Shown here in pieces: positions 6,519 through 46,628 of a stretch of DNA of 64,000 nt. The position numbers and the translations under genes are program-made. Each line of letters opens with the position of its first letter. Position 1 is the stretch's first letter. A model generated the notes under the pieces. The model was not told where the DNA came from. It saw only the letters and a program-made list of their open reading frames with translations, and made no database searches. The stretch lies in the UHGV virus genome UHGV-0277504; one strand, given 5' to 3'. This DNA is from a virus.

Positions 6519-6959
6519 TTATTCCTCTTGTTCATCATTAAGTGCTTCTTCTTTAGAACCTGTTTTTCTCTCTACATTATATAAGTCTAAAATATAGTAC
6601 AAACCATTTTTATGAATATTATACTTCTTATAAATATCTTCTACATTCATAAAATGATAATCTTTGATAAGTTGTTTTGTTTTTTCTACATCATTTAATA
6701 CGTGAGCTACTCTCTCAGAAACTCTAGATTTCTTGTTTCTTTTCTCTACTTTATAACTGTTAATTACTGAGTAAATCATACCTGTACTTACTTTAACTGC
6801 TTTTGAGATTTCTTTAAACGGTGCTCCTTCTTCATATAAAGTAACGATTTGTTGCTCTTTAATTGTGTTGAATCTTTTATCTTTCTTTAAAGGTGTAAAT
6901 TCTTTTTTATTTTCTGTACCTAAAATCTTCTCTTCTTCTTTATTTAATGAAATAAACAT
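6519..6959 (-). CDS. hypothetical protein with a predicted helix-turn-helix
   Basis: IVTLYEEGAPFKEISKAVKVSTGMIYSVI resembles an HTH. Confidence 0.4.
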   Translation of the reverse strand: MFISLNKEEEKILGTENKKEFTPLKKDKRFNTIKEQQIVTLYEEGAPFKEISKAVKVSTGMIYSVINSYKVEKRNKKSRVSERVAHVLNDVEKTKQLIKDYHFMNVEDIYKKYNIHKNGLYYILDLYNVERKTGSKEEALNDEQEE

Positions 6960-7001
6960 ATAAAAAACTCCTTTTGTTTTGATACTTATATTATACTACA
7001 C

Positions 7002-32860: not shown

Positions 32861-33171
32861 TATTCATTCTCCTCTTCTTCTTTATCAATTTCTTCTAATT
32901 TTTCTTGAATAAAATCAATCACATCATCATTAATCATATCAGCTTGTCTTAAAGCATCAATTAGGATATTGAGGTTCATATTATAACTTTCTTCAATATC
33001 ATCTAACTGTTTAGATACTCCCATAGTTAAGTTAGTAATTGCTTTAGCTAAGTCTGTATAAGAAGCTGTTTTATCTTTTCCTTCTTCTTCTAATTGGTTA
33101 GCTCTTTGGTAGTTTTCTGTTGATTGAGCTGTAATATACGAATCAATAAAATTTAAAATATCTTTTTCCAA
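32860..33171 (-). CDS. hypothetical protein (103 aa; TTG start)
   Basis: AAGGAGG RBS then a TTG start. Confidence 0.45.
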   Translation of the reverse strand: MEKDILNFIDSYITAQSTENYQRANQLEEEGKDKTASYTDLAKAITNLTMGVSKQLDDIEESYNMNLNILIDALRQADMINDDVIDFIQEKLEEIDKEEEENE

Positions 33172-33201
33172 ATTGTTTCCTCCTTTTAATTCTTAATTAT
33201 T

Positions 33202-39254: not shown

Positions 39255-40694
39255 CTAAATTTCAATTCCTCCAAAATTATTATTTATAGTTTCTATCTTA
39301 CTTTGTTTTTTATCAAAAGTATTAGGTCTATCTTTACCATTATCTGATAATAATTGTTTATGCTCTGCTTCTTCTTCAGGTGTCTCATCTCTTACACGCA
39401 TTTTACTTGGTTCTACTTTTAAGTGAACAAATCTTTCACCTGTATTTGAACTATTTCGTATTTTATCTAAATAAAGTCTTAAGTAACCGTTTTTAAATTC
39501 TTCATCTTTTTGGTTTACTGCAAGTGCTACTTCCACAGCATTTAATATTTTTCTAGAACCTTCTACATGCTCACTTGTAATAACATCAGCACCGTATGCT
39601 GTTCTATTAGTTTGAGCTAAAGTCCAGCATACAAACTGGTATTGTTGTGCTAATCTTCGAATCTCTTCAAATAATTTACCTCCAGCATCTGATTCTGAAT
39701 AATTTCTTGCATAAGGGTTACGCATCAAATGTGGGTAGTCAATAATTACAACATCAATACGTTTATCGTACTTTATTCTTGTATTTACGATTAACTGTTC
39801 TAAGTCATTAGGGGATACTTGCTGTGGCATGTGTTTAGATAAAAAGTACTCACCAAAGAAAGGTCTATTTTCTTCATATTTCTTTTGTAAAGCTTTATAT
39901 ACATCTTCATTTAATTGCATATTCTCATCAATTAAATGCTTTTTCTCTACACCTAACATTTGTTGCTCTGCTCTTAAAATCATTCTATCCATGTTCTCCT
40001 CTAGTGCTACATATAGAACATTTAAACCAGAACGTACATAGTTCTTAGCTAGATTAGAAGCCATCAATGACTTACCTCTACCTGTGGGAGCCATAACTAA
40101 TCCTACTTCACCTCTAGCAATTCCTCCTTCTATTTGCTCATCAATAGAAGCAAACCCTGTAGAAAATTTATTTTTAGCAATATGCTTTAACTCATGTAAT
40201 TTTTTATCAGTATCTGAAAAGAAATCAATAAACTCACCACTAGTACCAGCAATATCTTTTACTTCTATTTCTTTTAATTTTTCTACAAGTTCTGTTAAAT
40301 TATCAGAATCTTCTTGTTTATTTTCTATAATAAATTTAGTCAAAACATTTTTAGACATTTCTGTTTTAACATATTTATTTATTTCACTATTTATAGAATC
40401 ATCTTCATTATCTAACTTAACTTTTGTTAAGTTATCCATATATTGTATTGTATTAGTAATAGTATCTTCTTCACATTTATTTTTTGTCATTATATCTTCT
40501 ATTTTAATAGCTAATGACTCTGTAGATATATGTTCTGAAGTATGTGATTTTCTTTTTATTGCTGTATAAATATATTTCATTTCCTCAGATTCATCTGAGA
40601 ATAGATGCTTAGGTAGGTTAGTTAAAACCTCTCTAGCAAAATTAATATCATTCATTGATTTATGAAGGATGACTTCCTTTATTCGTTTACTCAA
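39255..40694 (-). CDS. DnaB-like replicative helicase (RecA-fold C-terminal domain; TTG start)
   Basis: GFASIDEQIEGGIARGEVGLVMAPTGRGKSLMASNLA...VALEE matches the DnaB Walker A/B region. Confidence 0.65.
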   Translation of the reverse strand: MSKRIKEVILHKSMNDINFAREVLTNLPKHLFSDESEEMKYIYTAIKRKSHTSEHISTESLAIKIEDIMTKNKCEEDTITNTIQYMDNLTKVKLDNEDDSINSEINKYVKTEMSKNVLTKFIIENKQEDSDNLTELVEKLKEIEVKDIAGTSGEFIDFFSDTDKKLHELKHIAKNKFSTGFASIDEQIEGGIARGEVGLVMAPTGRGKSLMASNLAKNYVRSGLNVLYVALEENMDRMILRAEQQMLGVEKKHLIDENMQLNEDVYKALQKKYEENRPFFGEYFLSKHMPQQVSPNDLEQLIVNTRIKYDKRIDVVIIDYPHLMRNPYARNYSESDAGGKLFEEIRRLAQQYQFVCWTLAQTNRTAYGADVITSEHVEGSRKILNAVEVALAVNQKDEEFKNGYLRLYLDKIRNSSNTGERFVHLKVEPSKMRVRDETPEEEAEHKQLLSDNGKDRPNTFDKKQSKIETINNNFGGIEI

Positions 40695-40876
40695 ATCTTC
40701 TCACTGCTACTAAAAAACATACTTAAATGTATTTAGAAAGTTTCCCCTTTCACTGTGGTTAGTTGTATTTACAACTAGGTCTAAAAACCACTCCCAGAGC
40801 GTTAATTCCGATGTAGCCCACCGTATTTAGTACATTTAAAGTAAGTTACTAATTTTTAGTAACTTTCTCCTTTCTT
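40695..40876 (-). ncRNA. candidate omega-RNA / right-end region of the tnpB element: structured segment directly 3' of tnpB, markedly GC-richer than its surroundings
   Basis: Contains the hairpins AAGTTACTA-AAAAT-TAGTAACTT and AGTTGT-AAAT-ACAACT and G/C-rich blocks (GGTGGGCTACATCGG, GCTCTGGGAGTGG). No ORF. Confidence 0.3.
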
Positions 40877-41983
40877 TTACACTAGTACTGTGTATTCTTT
40901 TGCCTGTTTTAAATTAATACTTGCATTTATATCTCTATCTTCTATTGTACCACAATTTTCACATTTGTAAACTCTTTTATTTAAAGGCATTTTTTGTCTA
41001 TTTCCACACTGGTTACATATCTGACTAGATGGATAAAATCTATCAACTTGCCTTAGCTCTATCCCATATTGATAGCATTTCCACTTCAACCATTCAACAA
41101 TGTAACCTAATCCTATTTGCTGAAAAGCGTTAGACAATCTTTTATTTTTCATCATACCTTTAATATTTAAATTTTCTATAATAATAAATTGTGGGTTTTC
41201 TTGAACAATAGATAGAATATTTTTTCGTTTAATATCTCTCTTTAAATTAGATATTTTTCTGTATAGTCTTTGTACTTTTAATAATTGTTTAAACCAATTA
41301 TTAGATTTCTTTTGTTTTCTACTTAATTTTCTTTGCTGTCTTTTTAATGATTTATTTAGTTTAATAAGTCTTTTGTTCTTTCTTAAATCTGTTATTTTAA
41401 CACCTGAAGGTGTGAACAATGTGTCTTTTAAACCTAAATCTATACCTATTCCTTCTGTTTGAAGTTTCTTAAAGATAATCTTAGGTTCTTCATCAACTAA
41501 AACAGAAACATAGTACCTATCAAATTCTTTTGATATTGTTGCTGACTTTATATTGTGTTTTGGTATATAACCTTTTTCTTTTAATCTTACCCATTTTAAG
41601 TTTGGAAGTTTTATTCTATGTCTTTCTATTTTAATAGTTCCTATTAAGTAGTAAGAACCATTACTTTGTTTTTTCTTAAAATTAGGGTACCCACTATTAT
41701 AATTCCAAAACCTATTATAAGCATTTTCTGCATTTGCCATGGCTTGTTTTATAGCTTTGGTACTCACTTCTTTAGTCCACTTTTTATCTTCATTATTTGG
41801 AATAAATTCATTGTTATACCATACACTAAACTTCATATGATTTAAAAATTTCAAACCATTGTCATAACGAATTTTATTAATTTCTATAAATTTATTATAA
41901 ACACTTCTACAAGCATTAATTGTTTTATTAATTTCTTTTATTTGTTTTTTATTTGGTTTTATCTCTGTTTTATATCGTATCAT
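40877..41983 (-). CDS. tnpB: TnpB RNA-guided endonuclease (IS200/IS605 OrfB), canonical
   Basis: 368 aa. RuvC-I GIDLGL, RuvC-II IIENLNIKGM, zinc finger CNQCG...CENCG, RuvC-III DRDINASINL. No tnpA. Starts 13 nt after the stop of the upstream gene. Confidence 0.85.
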   Translation of the reverse strand: MIRYKTEIKPNKKQIKEINKTINACRSVYNKFIEINKIRYDNGLKFLNHMKFSVWYNNEFIPNNEDKKWTKEVSTKAIKQAMANAENAYNRFWNYNSGYPNFKKKQSNGSYYLIGTIKIERHRIKLPNLKWVRLKEKGYIPKHNIKSATISKEFDRYYVSVLVDEEPKIIFKKLQTEGIGIDLGLKDTLFTPSGVKITDLRKNKRLIKLNKSLKRQQRKLSRKQKKSNNWFKQLLKVQRLYRKISNLKRDIKRKNILSIVQENPQFIIIENLNIKGMMKNKRLSNAFQQIGLGYIVEWLKWKCYQYGIELRQVDRFYPSSQICNQCGNRQKMPLNKRVYKCENCGTIEDRDINASINLKQAKEYTVLV

Positions 41984-41996
41984 AATTACTCATCTC

Positions 41997-43610
41997 TTAT
42001 TGATAACCACTCTCTCTTTTCAATCTATTATAATCTAGCATACCATAAGAAGTTAATGGAATCAAGTCCTCTAAGTTATATTTAGTTAAAATATGTTTAA
42101 CATCTTTGATATTTACTTCATAACCCATGAAGTCAGCAAACATTCTCAAAACATAATAGGTAGAACTATTCTTACTAAGTACAAGGTAGTCATAAGCTAC
42201 TGAAGTAAGATTTGAAATATCTTGCTTAGTTAAATTTATTAAGTCTGCATTATCAGATACTAATCCTATGTTAATTAAATTATCTTTTAATGGGATATTA
42301 TTAAGTTCTAATTCTGATATTATATGGTGTCTTTGCATAGGGAATAAAGAAGTACGTACATTACTTGAAAAACTAGTTGGTGCATACTCATTAATAATAA
42401 GTTGCTTAACAAATTTATTAATTACTTTTGCTTCTTCTTTTTCCATATCTTTAATTGATTTATCTACTTTATCACTAAAGTTTAATAAAGTCAAGTGTTT
42501 ATTATCTCTTACAAAACCGAATTCTAAATCCTCTAAATCTAATGCTTTTTCAAACATTGTGTCAATATCATGTATTTCATCATTTAATTTTGACATATAC
42601 ATTTGCTGTAACTGATTTAATGCTGGATTATTCTTATATATAGTTGAATCTACTAATAACTCAGTATCTCCTAAATGTCTCTGTGTGTTATTTACATTTT
42701 TCTTTATAGTATCTATATATTTATAGTATTGTTCAAAATATTTATCAGAATTAAAATAATTAGGCATAGGAATATTTATACTAGAATTTGTATTTTCATA
42801 CACATAAGATACATTATTAAATACATTTTGCATATAAAGAAAAACATTAAAATTATTTAAATCTTTTATTTTATTATAAAAATTATAGAAAGTGTTAAAT
42901 GTTTTACTACCAAAGAAATTATCGGATACACTATTTTTAGATAAAAATACAACTAATTGATTTTTATAAAACTCTATATACTTTTTATGATGTTTTACTT
43001 GGTATGGTTCTAAGTCATTTTTTTCTATTCTTCTTTCATGAAAATCTCGTCTAGCGTTCATGTGTGCTATACAATACGTATCATAGAGTTTGCATAATAT
43101 ATAAGCTTTATAAAACCCTTCAGGGTCATAAGACATATTAAATACTTCTTTAGAAGGATAATTCATATTGCTTAGCTCTAAATTCATATCTAGTATAATA
43201 CGTCTATTCTTATCTTTGATAGCCTTATATTTTGCCATCTCTTGTTTAGTTCGTCTTCTATTTTCTTTTCTTTGATAAGTATATGTAGGGAAGTGTTTAT
43301 CTCTTAAATCTTTAGCATATTTCTGTGCTGATTGTATAATATTATCGTTACTCTTATTAAATTCTACAAGGTCTTCTGTATTAAATCTCTCTTTAATAAG
43401 TGTAATAACAATACCACCGTTGTGACCTTTTTTAGTAGCTACTGCTATTTTATTCTCTTCTTCTAATTTTTTAAGATTGTTATTAATAGTTGATACAGAT
43501 ACACCTACTGATTCAGCTATTTTTTTCTTTGTTGATATAGTAAATATATTGTCTTTAGAATTAGATTCTAAATAGTCTAGTAGTTTTCTTTTTGTCTTAA
43601 CACTTCCCAT
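41997..43610 (-). CDS. hypothetical protein with an N-terminal winged-HTH (Rep-like position in the replication module)
   Basis: IAESVGVSVSTINNNLKKLEEENKI HTH. The rest is N/Y/K-rich with no recognised motif. Confidence 0.4.
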   Translation of the reverse strand: MGSVKTKRKLLDYLESNSKDNIFTISTKKKIAESVGVSVSTINNNLKKLEEENKIAVATKKGHNGGIVITLIKERFNTEDLVEFNKSNDNIIQSAQKYAKDLRDKHFPTYTYQRKENRRRTKQEMAKYKAIKDKNRRIILDMNLELSNMNYPSKEVFNMSYDPEGFYKAYILCKLYDTYCIAHMNARRDFHERRIEKNDLEPYQVKHHKKYIEFYKNQLVVFLSKNSVSDNFFGSKTFNTFYNFYNKIKDLNNFNVFLYMQNVFNNVSYVYENTNSSINIPMPNYFNSDKYFEQYYKYIDTIKKNVNNTQRHLGDTELLVDSTIYKNNPALNQLQQMYMSKLNDEIHDIDTMFEKALDLEDLEFGFVRDNKHLTLLNFSDKVDKSIKDMEKEEAKVINKFVKQLIINEYAPTSFSSNVRTSLFPMQRHHIISELELNNIPLKDNLINIGLVSDNADLINLTKQDISNLTSVAYDYLVLSKNSSTYYVLRMFADFMGYEVNIKDVKHILTKYNLEDLIPLTSYGMLDYNRLKRESGYQ

Positions 43611-43625
43611 AATACTTATCCTTCC

Positions 43626-46600
43626 TTACATTTTTCTAATTTCAAATTCTTCTTCCTTATAAATTTTCTCACGCTCTTTTGAATGGTGGAATAAAAATCT
43701 ATTAGTCATATCTGCAAAATCATAAATTTGTGTTGTATTATCATCTTTCTTTTTACGTAAAGCACGACCTACACGTTGTAATACTTGTCTTAATGATTTA
43801 CCACCTGCTCCTAGTATAAGTGAGTTAATACCTGAAATATCTACACCCTCATCTATTAAGCTTGTAGCAATCATTACTTTTAATTTACCGCTACGCATAT
43901 CATTTAGTTTTTGTTTACGTATCTCAGAATCAACTTCACCATGTAAAAAATAATGTTCTACATTTAAACCATCTAGTAATTCCGATATATTATTTCCATG
44001 GTCTATAAAGTTTACTATAATAAGTATCCCTTTGTCCTCATTATACCACTTCTCTGTTAATTTTGCAATAAGTTTATTCCTAAAATTATTATTTATTATA
44101 CCTTTCTCATAAGCAACTCGATACTCATCTATATTATCAATATCATTAGGGTTGGCTATAGGTATAATATTTATTGTAGGTTTAGCTGAATGACCTTCTT
44201 CTATAAGTTGTTTATTCGTTACTCTAGATATAACATCTCCGAATAAACCTTGCATACGCATCCACAAAAGCTCATCTTTTTTATCAATGGAGCCTGTTAA
44301 AGCTATTCTATATAACGCATTTTCACAAGTCATTAAATTGTTATACCAAGTATCTGATTTTGAGTGATGTGCTTCATCTACAATCATAACCGTTATAGTA
44401 TCTAAAAACTCACGCATACGATGATACTTATCATATTTTTTCTTATTCTTATTTCTTACTATATTTTGAAAGTTAGCGTTATGATTTTTTAATCTCATAA
44501 GCACTTCATTGTCATTCTTACAAGATTTATAAATACCGATAAGTTCATCTTTAACCGTTTGTTCTACTTTGGTTTTTGGTATAAAATTATCTAATAACAT
44601 ACCTAGTAGTTTCTTCTGGTTTGTACCTCCTTCAAACTTAGGTAAAAACTCAGTAGCAATCTTCTTACTTATATTCTGTTTAGGTGTTAGTTTAACGCCT
44701 TGTGTAGGGTCTTTAAGGTTAGCGTTAAGTGTAGGTACCATAACAACTGTTACTTGCTGTATATTAAATTGACCTGCTCCTACTTTACCTATAGGTATAT
44801 TTAATCTTTGCTTTAATCTATCTGCTGATTGATGAAAAATTTCTGTAGAACCTGTAAAGAAAGCTATTCTTTCTCCTCTTTCTAATTGAGGTAATAGTTG
44901 GTCTATAATACCACTAGCAATCTCGGTATTATGATTAACAACTGTATTAGAAATAAAACTATGTGTTTTTGGCATACATACATCGAATGTAGGTATAATC
45001 TCCTCTTCTAATACTTGTTCTACTTTCTGGTAATAGATATTCTTATCTGTTATACTTTCAAAAAGTTCTTTAATTTCCTTATCTCCGTCAGGGTATAATG
45101 CTACTACTTCTCTAAGTTTATCAATAGTAATAGTGTCTCTTGAAAGATACTTACTAAATTCTTTTTTATCTATATTTAAAGAATCTCTATATTTTTTTAG
45201 TAAATAACGTGACCCTTCTATAGTGTTTCCATAAGAACTTTTAATTTTTGTACCAATAGATAGGAAGTTCTCTTTTTGAGTTTTTCTTTGTTGTGTTTCG
45301 AATCTTAATAAAGGTAATAATTTAATTAATTCTTTTCTATTAACTATAAGTCTATAATAGTTATTGTGTTTGTATTTTTTAACTACTTTTTCTTTACTAG
45401 TTGATACAATCCCTATATTAGAAAGAATAAGTTGTAAGTCTTTTATTAAATCTTTAGAAGCACTCGTAACTTCTAAGTTCTTTTCTGATATGCTGGACTC
45501 ACATTCTAAGTAACCACTTACAAATGCTAATTGAATATTTTCAGGGGCTTCCATAATACACTTAGGTATTCTTTTATCTTTTGCTACTCCATATTCAATT
45601 TTATATTTATCGTGAAATTCCCTAGTTTTTATTGTATCATGTAAGTGTATAGTTATACCTTTAGATTCTTTATGTGTATCATAATAAACTTCCTTATTAC
45701 TGAAAGTATTCCAGAATTTAGAAACTTTATCTAGTATCTCTTTTTTATCGTTAGAAAATGACAAACGACTGTAAGAACCTAAATAACTGTCAGCTACCAT
45801 ACAACCTAATGCATAGGCTTCCTCTTCATTTTCTACGGTATTGTTGTTACCAAATTGACGGTCTCCTACTCTAGATACTAAAATATCTCCGACTTCAATA
45901 TCTTCACTTTTTTTCCATTTAAGATTAAAACCCTCTCTAACTAATAAGGGGTGATTATAAGTATTAACTAACTCAATACCTTTATTAGTTTTTATTCTCT
46001 TTGTAGGTTTTTCTCCATTCTTAGTAAAATGACTAGTATACTCAACTTCACCATAACGATTTATTAATGGGTATTTTAATTCTATGACTTTTTCTTTATT
46101 ATCTACTTTAACTCCCTGAGTTTCAAAAATCTCTTGAAGAGACTTATACCCTTCTGTAGTTAAAATCATAGAATCCATAGAAATACATTTACCTCCGTTT
46201 GTACTTATATGAAGTATACCGTTAAAGTAAGTTAAACTATTGAATACAGCATCGTATTGGTAATCTCTTAAAGTTATTTGACCTACATTATCATCTAGTA
46301 AATTAATTTCCTTATCTATGTCTTCTTCAGCTAAGAAACTCTCATCACGTTCATCAGTTATTCCATATTGAAAATTATATCTAGACTGTAGCTCTCCTAA
46401 TAACTCTTGTACTTTAAATAGTAGTCCTGTAGGGAATCTATCTCTATCGTACTCATAGAAATCTATATAACCATCCCACTGACCTCTTTTATACGCTGGA
46501 CTATATTGAAACCCTTCCTGTCTTGCACCTAATGTTGTGTGCATCCTTTTTAAAATAATATCTTTTAAATAACTATCTCCCTCCTCAAATTCTATATAAG

Positions 46601-46628
46601 TATATAAGTTTTTAACATGTAATTTCAT
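43626..46628 (-). CDS. SF2 (DEAH-type) DNA helicase precursor, interrupted by an intein in the P-loop
   Basis: Exteins: ...GILHISTNGGK | TEIASGIID..., VMIVDEAHH (motif II), QRVGRALR (motif VI). Precursor 1000 aa. Mature helicase about 580 aa. Confidence 0.75.
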   Translation of the reverse strand: MKLHVKNLYTYIEFEEGDSYLKDIILKRMHTTLGARQEGFQYSPAYKRGQWDGYIDFYEYDRDRFPTGLLFKVQELLGELQSRYNFQYGITDERDESFLAEEDIDKEINLLDDNVGQITLRDYQYDAVFNSLTYFNGILHISTNGGKCISMDSMILTTEGYKSLQEIFETQGVKVDNKEKVIELKYPLINRYGEVEYTSHFTKNGEKPTKRIKTNKGIELVNTYNHPLLVREGFNLKWKKSEDIEVGDILVSRVGDRQFGNNNTVENEEEAYALGCMVADSYLGSYSRLSFSNDKKEILDKVSKFWNTFSNKEVYYDTHKESKGITIHLHDTIKTREFHDKYKIEYGVAKDKRIPKCIMEAPENIQLAFVSGYLECESSISEKNLEVTSASKDLIKDLQLILSNIGIVSTSKEKVVKKYKHNNYYRLIVNRKELIKLLPLLRFETQQRKTQKENFLSIGTKIKSSYGNTIEGSRYLLKKYRDSLNIDKKEFSKYLSRDTITIDKLREVVALYPDGDKEIKELFESITDKNIYYQKVEQVLEEEIIPTFDVCMPKTHSFISNTVVNHNTEIASGIIDQLLPQLERGERIAFFTGSTEIFHQSADRLKQRLNIPIGKVGAGQFNIQQVTVVMVPTLNANLKDPTQGVKLTPKQNISKKIATEFLPKFEGGTNQKKLLGMLLDNFIPKTKVEQTVKDELIGIYKSCKNDNEVLMRLKNHNANFQNIVRNKNKKKYDKYHRMREFLDTITVMIVDEAHHSKSDTWYNNLMTCENALYRIALTGSIDKKDELLWMRMQGLFGDVISRVTNKQLIEEGHSAKPTINIIPIANPNDIDNIDEYRVAYEKGIINNNFRNKLIAKLTEKWYNEDKGILIIVNFIDHGNNISELLDGLNVEHYFLHGEVDSEIRKQKLNDMRSGKLKVMIATSLIDEGVDISGINSLILGAGGKSLRQVLQRVGRALRKKKDDNTTQIYDFADMTNRFLFHHSKEREKIYKEEEFEIRKM
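44928..46187 (-). mobile_element. intein (420 aa) with a LAGLIDADG homing-endonuclease domain, inserted between K and T of Walker A
   Basis: Starts CISMDSMIL. LAGLIDADG blocks LGCMVADSY and SGYLECESS. Ends ...VVNHN followed by Thr. Confidence 0.7.

What the first reader, a model, noticed from the sequence alone, without database searches (positions are those of the whole stretch)
40695..41996. Stand-alone canonical TnpB sitting between phage replication genes, with a GC-rich structured 3' flank that is a candidate omega-RNA
The 368-aa ORF has every TnpB hallmark: RuvC-I, RuvC-II, a CxxC...CxxC zinc finger and RuvC-III. It has no tnpA and almost no left flank, starting 13 nt after the stop of the upstream Rep-like gene. 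The 182 nt between its stop and the DnaB-like helicase start are ORF-free, clearly GC-richer than the ~30% GC background, and contain two clean hairpins plus an enclosing stem. That is what an omega-RNA scaffold followed by a guide looks like. In a genome already full of homing endonucleases, a TnpB placed like this could be an RNA-guided homing element rather than a classical IS. Both the phage location and that mode of action are unusual.
Basis: partly seen in the sequence, partly recalled or inferred. Interest (0 to 1): 0.8.

Follow-up and report, generated by a model that had tools for sequence, protein, structure and literature searches.

The report
Solo TnpB with guide RNA in phage
A lytic Staphylococcus epidermidis phage carries, exactly between two replication genes, a transposase-less remnant of an IS607 insertion sequence. 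The remnant keeps an intact RNA-guided nuclease (TnpB) and its guide RNA, which is aimed at the uninterrupted version of the same site in sister phages, so it is a good natural candidate for an RNA-guided homing element.

Summary
Window 40877-41983 (-) encodes an intact 368-aa TnpB (D182/E270/D351, two CxxC pairs). Its closest solved relative is ISFba1 IS607 TnpB (PDB 8IAZ, E 1e-88).

Ten sister Sepunavirus genomes lack a 1306-nt block (40704-42009) and have rep overlapping dnaB, so the 3' flank belongs to the insert and is not a helicase leader.

The flank is a real omega/reRNA:
- 14 distinct copies from at least 8 insertion sites align and all end ...UUUUAGUAGCAG.
- 40 pairs are 97.7% paired, and 14 pairs show compensatory changes against 5.7±1.6 in shuffles.
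- A covariance model built from these copies finds full-length matches behind more than 30 distant IS607 tnpB genes that carry canonical RAGATH-18.
- Rfam's own RAGATH-18 model misses it, because the distal stem is replaced by a plain hairpin.

The 20-nt guide (40703-40684) covers the dnaB start and matches the empty sites exactly. tnpA and the left end are deleted, yet tnpB is under purifying selection (dN/dS about 0.1).

Homing between co-infecting phages is the best-supported mechanism but is not shown. The motif at this site is GAGAG rather than the canonical AGGAG.

This is a new member of a known kind, of moderate interest mainly because it is directly testable.

The parts
40704..42009 (-). 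Inserted IS607-derived element (1306 nt): left remnant, tnpB and the omega-RNA scaffold. The left boundary is ambiguous by 2 nt (TG).
   Evidence: Filled and empty sites were compared with Terranova, phiIBB-SEP1 and BE06. Homology to copies at other sites stops at 40704.
40877..41983 (-). tnpB, 368 aa, with an intact RuvC triad (D182/E270/D351) and CxxC...CxxC zinc finger.
   Evidence: dN/dS is 0.07-0.20 against 12 other copies.
41984..42009 (-). 26-nt left remnant (UGGUUAUCAAUAAGAGAUGAGUAAUU). It resembles the 3' end of tnpA in the complete element, supplies the new rep C-terminus (GYQ*) and the tnpB ribosome-binding region. There is no left end and no tnpA.
   Evidence: Alignment with HM01 (tnpA overlaps tnpB) and with MRSA28, which has a longer tnpA remnant.
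40704..40862 (-). Omega-RNA (reRNA) scaffold, six helices:
- H1 40862-40853 / 40716-40707
- H2 40840-40832 / 40730-40722
- H3 40823-40819 / 40813-40809
- H4 40799-40796 / 40747-40744
- H5 40791-40787 / 40759-40755
- H6 40777-40771 / 40766-40760
It ends in CAG at 40706-40704.
   Evidence: RNAalifold on 14 distinct copies, pair counts and controls, covariance-model hit at 40704-40885 with 206.9 bits, coordinates checked.
40744..40799 (-). RAGATH-18-like core (CUCU-GGGA-GUGGU ... ACCAC-AGUGAA-GGGG). The distal part of the Rfam consensus is replaced by a simple 7-bp hairpin.
   Evidence: RF03064 does not hit. It does hit the same position in relatives with 42-48% aa identity. The sequences were compared directly and cross-detected by model R1.
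40684..40703 (-). Predicted 20-nt guide, UGAGAAGAUUUGAGUAAACG. It is the flanking DNA just after the scaffold and spans the dnaB TTG start (40694-40692).
   Evidence: By analogy with ISFba1 and Cbo IS607 TnpB (PMC11061315, PMC10690162). It is identical to the empty-site sequence in Terranova, SEP1 and BE06 and unique in the window.
42010..42015 (-). AGAGAG at the left junction. In empty sites this directly precedes the target, so it occupies the position of the target-adjacent motif (TAM).
   Evidence: Other sites of the lineage have AGGAG here. A complete S. hominis copy also sits next to GAGAG.
40704..40708 (-). AGCAG, the last 5 nt of the scaffold. It lies in the motif position of the filled allele and has C where the motif has a purine (position -3). 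It is proposed to prevent self-cleavage.
   Evidence: Invariant in all 14 copies. The analogy is Cbo IS607, where the scaffold ends TCGG and the motif is TGGG (PMC10690162).
41997..43610 (-). Upstream Rep-like winged-HTH gene (537 aa). The insertion changed its last 3 codons.
39255..40694 (-). Downstream DnaB-like helicase gene (479 aa, TTG start). In empty sites its start overlaps the rep stop (ATTTGA).

Best explanation
This is a tnpA-less, left-end-less derivative of an IS607-family insertion sequence. It sits in a Sepunavirus (a Twort-like, strictly lytic S. epidermidis phage, about 99.7% identical to phage Twillingate here).

Shown:
- The block carries an intact TnpB nuclease gene.
- It also carries a structured scaffold RNA of about 160-180 nt that is homologous to the RAGATH-18-type reRNA of IS607 TnpBs.
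- The block is inserted precisely at the rep/dnaB gene junction.
- About half of the sequenced Sepunaviruses have it and half have the intact junction.

Inferred mechanism:
1. tnpB is transcribed with the replication operon.
2. TnpB binds the scaffold in the 3' part of its own transcript. The mature omega-RNA ends with about 16-20 nt copied from the first bases of the downstream flank (UGAGAAGAUUUGAGUAAACG).
3. When the phage co-infects a cell with a sister phage that lacks the insert, the ribonucleoprotein recognises AGAGAG followed by the matching 20 nt and cuts.
4. Recombinational repair from the insert-bearing genome copies tnpB, the omega-RNA and a few hundred bases of flank into the cut genome. 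This is transposase-independent ('non-restorative') homing.
5. The insert-bearing allele is spared because the scaffold end AGCAG replaces the motif.
For: Identity:
- Pfam and NCBIfam hits are above their cut-offs.
- 8IAZ ISFba1 TnpB matches at E 1.3e-88 with the catalytic residues aligned.
- Complete relatives with an IS607 serine transposase exist in HM01 (210 bits against transpos_IS607) and in S. hominis.

The insert:
- Empty sites are present in 10 Sepunavirus genomes and filled sites in 9.

The omega-RNA:
- Sequence is conserved up to an invariant ...UUUUAGUAGCAG at 8 or more different insertion sites, and diverges immediately after it.
- 97.7% of cells are paired. 14 pairs have double changes against 5.7±1.6 in shuffles (0/500), and slid controls give 1-4.
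- Model R1 finds full-length matches directly after tnpB in more than 30 distant IS607 loci.

Functional maintenance without tnpA:
- dN/dS is 0.10-0.18 between tnpA-less copies at this same site, with dS of 0.10-0.52.
- The omega-RNA region (95-100% identical) is better conserved than the tnpB coding sequence (89-97%).

Target logic:
- The guide equals the empty-site sequence.
- Other sites of the lineage show AGGAG directly before the target.
- The window itself holds two such uncut empty sites.

Mobility by recombination:
- Filled or empty state is uncoupled from the flanking haplotypes.
- The window and Twillingate share a block with no differences, about 40507-42269 (the element plus 197 and 260 nt of flank). 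It lies inside flanks that differ by 2-3%.

Precedent:
- TnpB homing for IS605 and IS607 (PMC10055086, PMC10690162).
- TnpA-independent drive in plasmids (PMC11870625).
Against: - No transcript, cleavage or cross data exist.
- The motif at this site is GAGAG, not AGGAG. For ISFba1 every single change to the motif abolished cleavage in vitro (PMC11061315).
- The ISFba1 residues that read motif positions -3 to -5 (N121/N122) fall in a 4-aa deletion in the phage protein, so the specificity here is unknown.
- Phage genomes recombine heavily anyway. tnpB itself is a mosaic of alleles from other sites. So the uncoupling from flanks and the identical block do not require a nuclease.
- The nearest relative, Twillingate, carries a 334-nt frameshifting deletion in tnpB, so the gene is dispensable.
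- Rfam RAGATH-18 does not hit.
Confidence: 0.6

Rival explanations
1. Passive relic. The block is an IS607 remnant that no longer cuts anything at this site, for example because GAGAG is not an accepted motif. It persists and moves between phage backbones only through the ordinary high rate of homologous recombination among co-infecting phages.
For: The motif is non-canonical (against PMC11061315). tnpB is mosaic, which shows rampant recombination. Twillingate has a dead copy. Other phages hold decayed copies: phiSA12/PSU6 lost the right end, and J51Sa has an orphan omega-RNA.
Against: dN/dS of about 0.1 between tnpA-less copies at the same site. The scaffold is conserved with compensatory changes. 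All catalytic residues are intact. A complete IS607 of the same lineage also sits next to GAGAG in S. hominis.
Confidence: 0.2
2. Domesticated by the phage for another role. One possibility is a weapon that cuts competitor genomes at the dnaB start without copying itself. Another is a regulator: TnpB bound to the scaffold in the operon transcript would process the rep-tnpB-dnaB mRNA or control helicase translation.
For: The guide and the scaffold end lie on the dnaB ribosome-binding region and start codon. The insertion breaks the rep-dnaB translational coupling seen in empty sites. There is purifying selection without tnpA.
Against: Cutting a homologous co-infecting genome in a recombination-proficient phage would lead to copying anyway. 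Nuclease-dead regulators (TldR type) have lost RuvC residues, and these are intact here. Copies at other sites flank unrelated genes, which argues against a dnaB-specific role.
Confidence: 0.12
3. Ordinary transposition. The block still moves as an IS607, using TnpA supplied in trans by a complete copy.
For: Complete copies with tnpA exist in Silviavirus phages and in S. hominis.
Against: The left end is gone. Only 26 nt precede tnpB, and they match the tnpA 3' end, not the left-end motif TTATTAAATTT seen in HM01, JDF86 and L104. All nine filled genomes have the insert at the same junction.
Confidence: 0.03
4. The 3' flank is simply the leader or terminator region of the helicase gene, as annotated in Twillingate ('terminator').
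For: A perfect local hairpin GUUACUAAAAAUUAGUAAC lies at 40863-40845, and Twillingate annotates a terminator there.
Against: The flank is absent from all phages lacking tnpB. It travels with tnpB to unrelated sites. The local hairpin is not conserved in HM01 or SEP1 copies, whereas the long-range pairing is.
Confidence: 0.01

Closest known systems
ISFba1 IS607 TnpB with RAGATH-18-derived reRNA (Ren et al. 2024, Cell Res, PMC11061315; PDB 8IAZ)
   Same: - It is the best solved-structure match (E 1.3e-88 over residues 3-366).
- Same domain order and the same RuvC triad and zinc finger.
- The reRNA starts a few nt after the stop codon, has a scaffold of about 170-187 nt, and is followed by the guide.
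- The 5' motif UACGGUGGGCUACAUCGGAAUUAACG and the 3' end ...UUUUAGUAGCAG are shared with canonical members such as Bacillus bruguierae L029.
- AGGAG is the motif at most sites of the lineage.
   Different: - About 50% aa identity.
- The distal part of RAGATH-18 is replaced by a plain hairpin, so RF03064 does not detect it.
- The ISFba1 loop that reads the motif (N121/N122) is deleted.
- The motif at this site is GAGAG.
- There is no tnpA.
- The host is a lytic phage.
Clostridium botulinum IS607 IStron TnpB/TnpA(S) (Zedaveinyte et al., PMC10690162), and ISCbt4 of Clostridium phage c-st
   Same: - IS607 family.
- The scaffold end mimics the motif except at position -3 (TCGG against TGGG there, AGCAG against AGGAG or GAGAG here).
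- TnpB cleaves the vacant site and is retained after loss of TnpA.
- c-st ISCbt4 TnpB is 47% identical.
   Different: No group I intron is present here (Rfam E<=10 scan). The motif differs. Restorative homing after TnpA excision cannot apply because tnpA and the left end are absent.
Free-standing homing endonucleases of T-even phages (SegF, SegB, Mob; 'intronless homing')
   Same: A nuclease gene lies between two conserved essential genes, is present or absent among close relatives, and is expected to cut the allele of a co-infecting phage and spread with flanking markers. The window and Twillingate share a block with no differences that includes 200-260 nt of flank on each side.
   Different: Target recognition would use a guide RNA that copies the flank, not protein contacts. 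Self and non-self are told apart by the presence of the insert itself. No protein homology.
TnpB-driven spread of IS605 in plasmid populations (PMC11870625), and 'transposon non-restorative homing' as defined in PMC13565253
   Same: The same proposed mode: TnpA-independent copying into an insert-free homologous molecule in the same cell.
   Different: That work was experimental and used plasmids and IS605. For phages the review calls it theoretical. Here the evidence is comparative only.

Membership tests
TnpB RNA-guided endonuclease (IS200/IS605/IS607 OrfB) | HTH/REC, RuvC and zinc-ribbon (TNB) domain architecture | tested here: met
   PF12323, PF01385 and PF07282 all score above their gathering cut-offs. 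NCBIfam guided_TnpB scores 242.5 bits against a cut-off of 100.
TnpB RNA-guided endonuclease (IS200/IS605/IS607 OrfB) | Intact RuvC D-E-D triad and CxxC...CxxC | tested here: met
   D182, E270, D351, C323/C326 and C341/C344 align with ISDra2 D191/E278/D361 and ISFba1 D194/E290/D371.
TnpB RNA-guided endonuclease (IS200/IS605/IS607 OrfB) | Structured omega-RNA encoded at the 3' end of the element, followed by a flank-derived guide | tested here: met
   Covariation, an invariant scaffold end at 8 or more sites, and a guide equal to the empty-site sequence. Expression and binding were not tested.
TnpB RNA-guided endonuclease (IS200/IS605/IS607 OrfB) | Guide- and motif-dependent DNA cleavage | not testable with these tools
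   Needs biochemistry or interference assays.
IS607-family insertion sequence | Serine-recombinase TnpA (MerR-like HTH plus resolvase domain) | tested here: not met
   There is no tnpA in the window: only 13 nt lie between the rep stop and tnpB. It is present in close relatives HM01 (NF033518, 210 bits) and S. hominis. So this is a derivative, not a complete member.
IS607-family insertion sequence | Left and right ends; insertion at or after a G-rich site (GG core) | tested here: inconclusive
   The right end is present and precise. The left end is absent. The junction here is AGAGAG|TG and has no GG. Other sites of the lineage are AGGAG|N.
RAGATH-18 RNA (Rfam RF03064) | Score at or above the Rfam gathering threshold (44.9 bits) | tested here: not met
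   No hit even at E<=10 on 221 nt, nor in any Staphylococcaceae copy. Positive controls score 56-74 bits in relatives with 42-48% aa identity.
RAGATH-18 RNA (Rfam RF03064) | Position 3' of an IS607 tnpB, with P1-GGA-P2 ... P2'-GAUGAA-P1' core and conserved 5' and 3' flanking motifs | tested here: met
   The core CUCU-GGGA-GUGGU ... ACCAC-AGUGAA-GGGG and the flanking motifs are shared with L029 and L014. Model R1 gives full-length hits on loci with canonical RAGATH-18. The P3/P4 distal part differs.
IStron (group I intron fused to IS605/IS607) | Group I intron ribozyme at the element's 5' side | tested here: not met
   No intron family appears in the Rfam scan of 40000-42500 at E<=10. The insert lies between genes, not within one.
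TldR-type nuclease-dead TnpB regulators | Loss of RuvC catalytic residues or C-terminal truncation | tested here: not met
   The triad and zinc finger are intact.
Homing genetic element (functional class) | Precise presence or absence at one site among close relatives, with an intact target in the empty alleles | tested here: met
   9 filled and 10 empty Sepunavirus genomes. The empty sites carry AGAGAG plus an exact 20-nt match.
Homing genetic element (functional class) | Nuclease-dependent super-Mendelian inheritance with co-conversion of flanks | not testable with these tools
   Only suggestive: the window and Twillingate share a block with no differences around the insert, within flanks that differ by 2-3%.

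The most novel reading that the evidence does not exclude
In strictly lytic Twortvirinae phages, tnpA-less TnpB/omega-RNA modules would work as RNA-guided free-standing homing endonucleases, that is, gene drives between co-infecting phages.

- Because the motif (AGGAG or GAGAG) is a Shine-Dalgarno-like sequence, each module lands between the ribosome-binding site and the start codon of a phage gene, and programs itself from that gene's first bases.
- Different phages of one genus carry modules at different junctions. The window is filled at rep/dnaB but empty, with perfect AGGAG-plus-target sites, at 6948-6972 and 33160-33184.
- Co-infections would therefore be reciprocal RNA-guided attacks, which would shape marker exclusion and mosaicism in these therapeutic phages.
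Probability: 0.5. Interest if true: 0.7.

Novelty: new member of a known kind. Interest (0 to 1): 0.55.

Why it matters
TnpB-mediated homing has been shown for transposon retention in bacterial chromosomes and for spread among plasmids. For phages it is so far only a theoretical entry in a 2026 review (PMC13565253).

This locus offers a ready natural test system:
- The S. epidermidis phages are culturable and more than 98% identical.
- They differ by presence or absence of the module at three defined junctions.
- The predicted guides match the empty alleles exactly.

If the modules are active, three things follow:
- They would be an RNA-guided counterpart of the T4 Seg/Mob endonucleases.
- They would help explain local mosaicism in Twort-like phages.
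- The 'transposases' that phage-therapy papers flag as a safety concern (PMC13152194, PMC10244729) would be re-read as phage-against-phage drive elements that cannot transpose.

The case also documents a RAGATH-18 variant that Rfam misses, so omega-RNAs in Staphylococcaceae are currently under-annotated. At 368 aa, with a possibly relaxed motif, the nuclease may be of minor interest for genome editing.

Tried and rejected
- **Rfam scans of the locus** at E<=10 gave only chance snoRNA/sRNA hits. RAGATH-18 was not detected. The positive controls show that this reflects divergence of the sequence and not a gap in the library.
- **Single-sequence folding** gave z = -1.68, which is not informative alone.
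- **The promoter/terminator scan** found no more promoter-like sites than shuffled sequence. Its one 'terminator' is part of the scaffold (H4/H5), so it was not used.
- **The exact-pattern scan of IMG/VR for the left-end motif** TATTAAATTYRTATACAA returned 72 loci. Only one, L204, could be tied to a copy already fetched (it lies on the same contig as L104). The others, many from giant-virus and other unrelated-looking contigs, were not inspected and were taken to be chance AT-rich matches. No motif logo could be built this way.
- **Other copies in the window** were sought with the right-end pattern, tblastn and model R1. None was found.
- **A phage-exclusive lineage** was considered and rejected. 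S. hominis (75% aa, complete IS607 on a plasmid-like contig), S. piscifermentans (65%) and Macrococcus (59-61%) carry relatives.
- **An IStron or a TldR-type regulator** were considered and rejected (see the membership tests).
- **Independent insertions of different elements at the same site** were considered as the cause of the 10% divergence between tnpB alleles there. This was rejected in favour of gene conversion, because the left remnant is shared and the divergence is mosaic.
Full report
**Where this is**

The window is a Sepunavirus, a Twort-like, strictly lytic Herelleviridae phage of Staphylococcus epidermidis.
- The locus is 99.7% identical to phage Twillingate and 97.6% to vB_SepM_BE25.
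- An IMG/VR contig encodes the identical TnpB protein.
- All genes here are on the minus strand. In order they are an intein-containing UvsW-like helicase (43626-46628), a Rep-like winged-HTH protein (41997-43610), the ORF in question (40877-41983), and a DnaB-like helicase (39255-40694).

**Check of the observation**

- The ORF, the 13-nt upstream gap and the 182-nt ORF-free 3' flank are exactly as described.
- The protein matches HTH_OrfB_IS605, OrfB_IS605 and Cas12f1-like_TNB above Pfam cut-offs, and NCBIfam 'guided_TnpB' at 242 bits against a cut-off of 100.
- Against solved structures, the best match is 8IAZ at E 1.3e-88, followed by ISDra2 TnpB at E 9e-45. 8IAZ is ISFba1, an IS607-family TnpB solved with its RAGATH-18-derived reRNA (PMC11061315).
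- D182, E270 and D351 and both CxxC pairs align with the catalytic and zinc residues of those enzymes.
- The GC claim is weaker than stated: 0.33 against 0.282±0.042, and 14% of equal-sized windows are as high.
- The single-sequence fold is not significant (z = -1.68).

**The flank belongs to an insert and is not a helicase leader**

A synthetic 'empty' junction finds ten Sepunavirus genomes in which rep and dnaB are contiguous: Terranova, Quidividi, PG-2021_1, PG-2021_23, BE06-09, BE24 and phiIBB-SEP1. In these the rep stop overlaps the dnaB TTG start (ATTTGA). Nine genomes have the insert: the window, BE25, BE04, BE05, 110, 80A, 80B, phiIPLA-C1C and Twillingate.

On the coding strand:
- The empty site reads ...AAAAGAGAGAG|TGAGAAGATTTGAGTAAACG...
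- The filled site reads ...AGAGAG|TGGTTATCAATAAGAGATGAGTAATT-ATG(tnpB)...TTTTTTAGTAGCAG|TGAGAAGATTTGAG...

The insert is therefore 40704-42009, 1306 nt, with a 2-nt ambiguity.

**It is a derivative of IS607**

- The same tnpB plus 3' flank occurs at other places in Twortvirinae phages. Homology always stops at 40704 on the 3' side and about 16 nt upstream of the ATG on the 5' side.
- In Silviavirus HM01, tnpB is preceded by an overlapping 196-aa gene that scores 210 bits against NCBIfam 'IS607 family transposase', together with a left end carrying a promoter.
- A plasmid-like S. hominis contig holds a complete element with a 75%-identical TnpB.
- The 26 nt upstream of tnpB in the window resemble the last bases of tnpA. 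MRSA28 has a longer tnpA remnant, and L104 keeps the left end but has an internally deleted tnpA.
- So tnpA has been lost repeatedly and in different ways, while tnpB and the flank stay.

**The flank is an omega/reRNA**

- Fourteen distinct copies were aligned: eleven from Staphylococcus phage genomes or IMG/VR viral contigs, one from a Macrococcus genome, one from a Scybalomonas MAG, and the window. They align over about 185 nt, all end ...UUUUAGUAGCAG, and diverge completely after that.
- RNAalifold gives 40 pairs in six helices.
- For that structure, 97.7% of cells are paired. 14 pairs carry changes on both sides against 5.7±1.6 in shuffles (0/500), and versions slid by 1-3 columns give 1-4.
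- Examples of compensatory change are GUGGU/ACCAC, GAGGU/ACCUC and GUAGU/ACUAC in one helix. In another, UAGUUGU/ACAACUA, UGCUCUU/AAGAGCA and UGAUUGU/ACAAUCA.

Rfam's RAGATH-18 model does not hit the window or any Staphylococcaceae copy. It does hit at 56-74 bits, at the equivalent position, behind every tnpB homologue of 42-48% identity that was tested, including ISCbt4 of Clostridium phage c-st. Direct comparison explains the miss:
- The 5' motif UACGGUGGGCUACAUCGGAAUUAACG is shared.
- The P1-GGA-P2 ... P2'-(A/G)(G/A)UGAA-P1' core is shared.
- The 3' end ACAUUU..UAUGUUUUUAGUAGCAG is shared with, for example, Bacillus bruguierae.
- The distal internal loop and stem of RAGATH-18 are replaced by a plain hairpin.

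A covariance model built from the 14 copies finds one site in the window (40704-40885, 206.9 bits). It also finds full-length matches immediately after tnpB in more than 30 distant loci with canonical RAGATH-18, for example 66.7 bits and E 2e-9 for L029, and 43.9 bits for c-st. The scaffold is thus a divergent member of the IS607 reRNA family. The perfect local hairpin that Twillingate annotates as a terminator is not conserved in other copies, whereas the long-range pairing UUACUAAAAA/UUUUUAGUAG is.

**Guide, motif and self-avoidance**

In IS607 systems the guide is the 16-20 nt that follow the scaffold (PMC11061315, PMC10690162).
- Here that is UGAGAAGAUUUGAGUAAACG (40703-40684). It spans the dnaB start, is unique in the window, and is identical to the empty-site sequence in the three empty-site phages whose sequence was examined (Terranova, phiIBB-SEP1 and BE06).
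- The window itself contains the empty counterparts of two other Sepunavirus insertions, which define the motif for the lineage: AAAAGGAG|TTTTTTATATG... (Terranova's second copy, 6972-6948) and AAAAGGAG|GAAACAATTTGG... (phiIBB-SEP1, 33184-33160).
- The left-end junctions of HM01 and JDF86 also read AGGAG. This is the motif determined for ISFba1.
- These motifs are Shine-Dalgarno sequences, and most of the guides examined contain a start codon 8-15 nt in. The elements therefore sit between the ribosome-binding site and the start codon.
- At rep/dnaB the corresponding bases are AGAGAG. That is a real uncertainty, because single changes to the motif abolish ISFba1 cleavage.
- Two things soften this uncertainty. 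First, the complete S. hominis element also abuts AAGAGAG; its boundary is inferred from the left-end start TTCAA. Second, the ISFba1 residues that read positions -1 and -2 are conserved (K76, K79, N57, N58, Y112 here), while N121/N122, which read -3 to -5, fall in a 4-residue deletion.
- In the filled allele the motif position is occupied by the invariant scaffold end AGCAG, with a pyrimidine at -3. This parallels the TCGG/TGGG self-avoidance shown for the Clostridium IS607.

**Is it maintained, and does it move?**

- dN/dS is 0.07-0.20 for all comparisons. This includes tnpA-less copies at this same junction: window against BE04, dS 0.40 and dN/dS 0.12; window against BE05, dS 0.52 and dN/dS 0.10.
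- At this junction tnpB alleles differ by 3-11% in nucleotides and the scaffold by 0-5%, while the flanking rep and dnaB genes differ by 0.1-1.8%.
- The excess divergence is mosaic. The middle and 3' two-thirds of the window's tnpB are 98-100% identical to the copy at the SEP1 primase site. Its 5' third matches alleles at rep/dnaB and at yet another site. Paralogous copies in different phages therefore exchange sequence.
- The filled or empty state is uncoupled from the flanking haplotypes.
- The window and Twillingate share a block without a single difference, about 40507-42269. It covers the element (leaving aside the 334 nt that are deleted in Twillingate) plus 197 nt and 260 nt of flank. 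It is embedded in flanks that differ by 2-3%. About 6 differences would be expected on each side if the rates were uniform.
- This is what a co-conversion tract would look like, but ordinary phage recombination could give the same pattern.
- Decay also occurs. Twillingate has a 334-nt frameshifting deletion (40964-41297, codons 229-340). phiSA12, PSU6 and Golestan-105 lost the scaffold end. RSM-J51Sa keeps only the omega-RNA.

**Mechanism and rivals**

The best reading (confidence 0.6 for the whole chain; above 0.9 for 'IS607-derived TnpB plus omega-RNA') is transposase-independent homing:
1. TnpB and the omega-RNA are made from the replication-module transcript.
2. They cut the insert-free allele of a co-infecting sister phage.
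3. Recombinational repair copies the module.

Rivals:
- A passive relic spread only by recombination (0.2).
- A domesticated role, such as pure exclusion or control of helicase expression (0.12).
- Trans-mobilisation by TnpA (0.03; there is no left end).
- A helicase leader or terminator (refuted).

**What is known and what is new**

- IS607 TnpB/reRNA nucleases, their AGGAG motif and their structure are published (PMC11061315).
- TnpB-mediated retention homing is published for IS605 and IS607 (PMC10055086, PMC10690162).
- TnpA-independent drive is published for plasmids (PMC11870625).
- A 2026 review lists homing into co-infecting phages as theoretical (PMC13565253).
- The Sepunavirus genes are annotated as 'transposase', and authors state that their role has not been investigated (PMC10244729; PMC13152194).
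- Full-text searches found no study of TnpB in Twortvirinae.
- TnpB homologues occur in 399 phage records, so the phage location alone is not remarkable.

I therefore file this as a new member of a known kind. It has a Rfam-invisible RAGATH-18 variant and a clean natural presence/absence system that makes phage-to-phage RNA-guided homing directly testable. Interest 0.55.

Noticed in passing
window 6948-6972 (-) and 33160-33184 (-): These are uninterrupted target sites, each a canonical AGGAG followed by an exact 20-nt match, for the TnpB/omega-RNA modules that phage Terranova (second copy) and phiIBB-SEP1 carry at these junctions. This phage would be a predicted victim or recipient of those modules in a co-infection.
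   Followed up: partly
window 40877-41983 vs L011, L103, L016, L018: tnpB is a recombinant mosaic. Roughly alignment columns 450-1100 are 98-100% identical to the copy at the SEP1 primase site. The 5' third matches alleles at rep/dnaB and at the L103 site. This implies gene conversion between paralogous copies in different phages.
   Followed up: partly
window 40964-41297; L001 (Twillingate): The nearest relative, Twillingate, has a 334-nt frameshifting deletion. It removes TnpB codons 229-340, including E270 and the first CxxC. Its element is otherwise 99.9% identical. It is a natural nuclease-dead control.
   Followed up: yes
L013 2501-2684 (phage RSM-J51Sa): An orphan omega-RNA. tnpB is deleted down to its last 24 nt, directly after an AGGAGG, while the full scaffold and its end GCAG remain.
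   Followed up: no
L012, L021, L020 (phiSA12, PSU6, Golestan-105): These copies have lost the 3' end of the scaffold: the sequence diverges after GAGAAAU. Their tnpB is truncated or fragmented, so they look like decaying modules.
   Followed up: no
L018 left junction (phage BE05); L002, L016: The left junction varies among the filled genomes:
- window: GAGAGAGTGG|TTATCAA
- BE25: GAGAGAATGG
- BE04: GAGAGAGTGA
- BE05: GAGAGAGTGAGTAG|TTATTAA, which keeps 4 nt of the target and ends rep two codons earlier.
   Followed up: no
window TnpB residues 112-117, compared with ISFba1 117-126: The ISFba1 loop carrying N121/N122, which reads motif positions -3 to -5, corresponds to a 4-residue deletion in the phage protein (YYLIGT----IKIERH against MYFVKNNPKDCRCERH). 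K80/K83, which read positions -2 and -1, are conserved. Motif specificity may be relaxed or altered.
   Followed up: partly
L253 (S. hominis GCA_022690205, contig JALCVV010000010): A complete IS607 (TnpA 197 aa plus TnpB 369 aa, 75% identical) with the same omega-RNA variant. It lies in a plasmid-like context (ParA-like gene, resolvase) and abuts AAGAGAG. It is a plausible cellular reservoir of the phage copies.
   Followed up: partly
window 43626-46628 (-): A 1000-aa UvsW-like DNA helicase that, according to the Twillingate annotation, is interrupted by an intein. It is one more selfish element in the same replication module.
   Followed up: no
L014 3763-3980 (Clostridium phage c-st): A HEARO/IscB-type omega-RNA (RF02033, 140 bits) lies about 1 kb downstream of the ISCbt4 TnpB/RAGATH-18 module. 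Two different OMEGA systems are therefore adjacent in one phage.
   Followed up: no
L109 528-721: There is a second full-length hit of the custom omega-RNA model, upstream of the tnpB locus on an IMG/VR contig (45.3 bits). It may be a tandem or orphan module.
   Followed up: no
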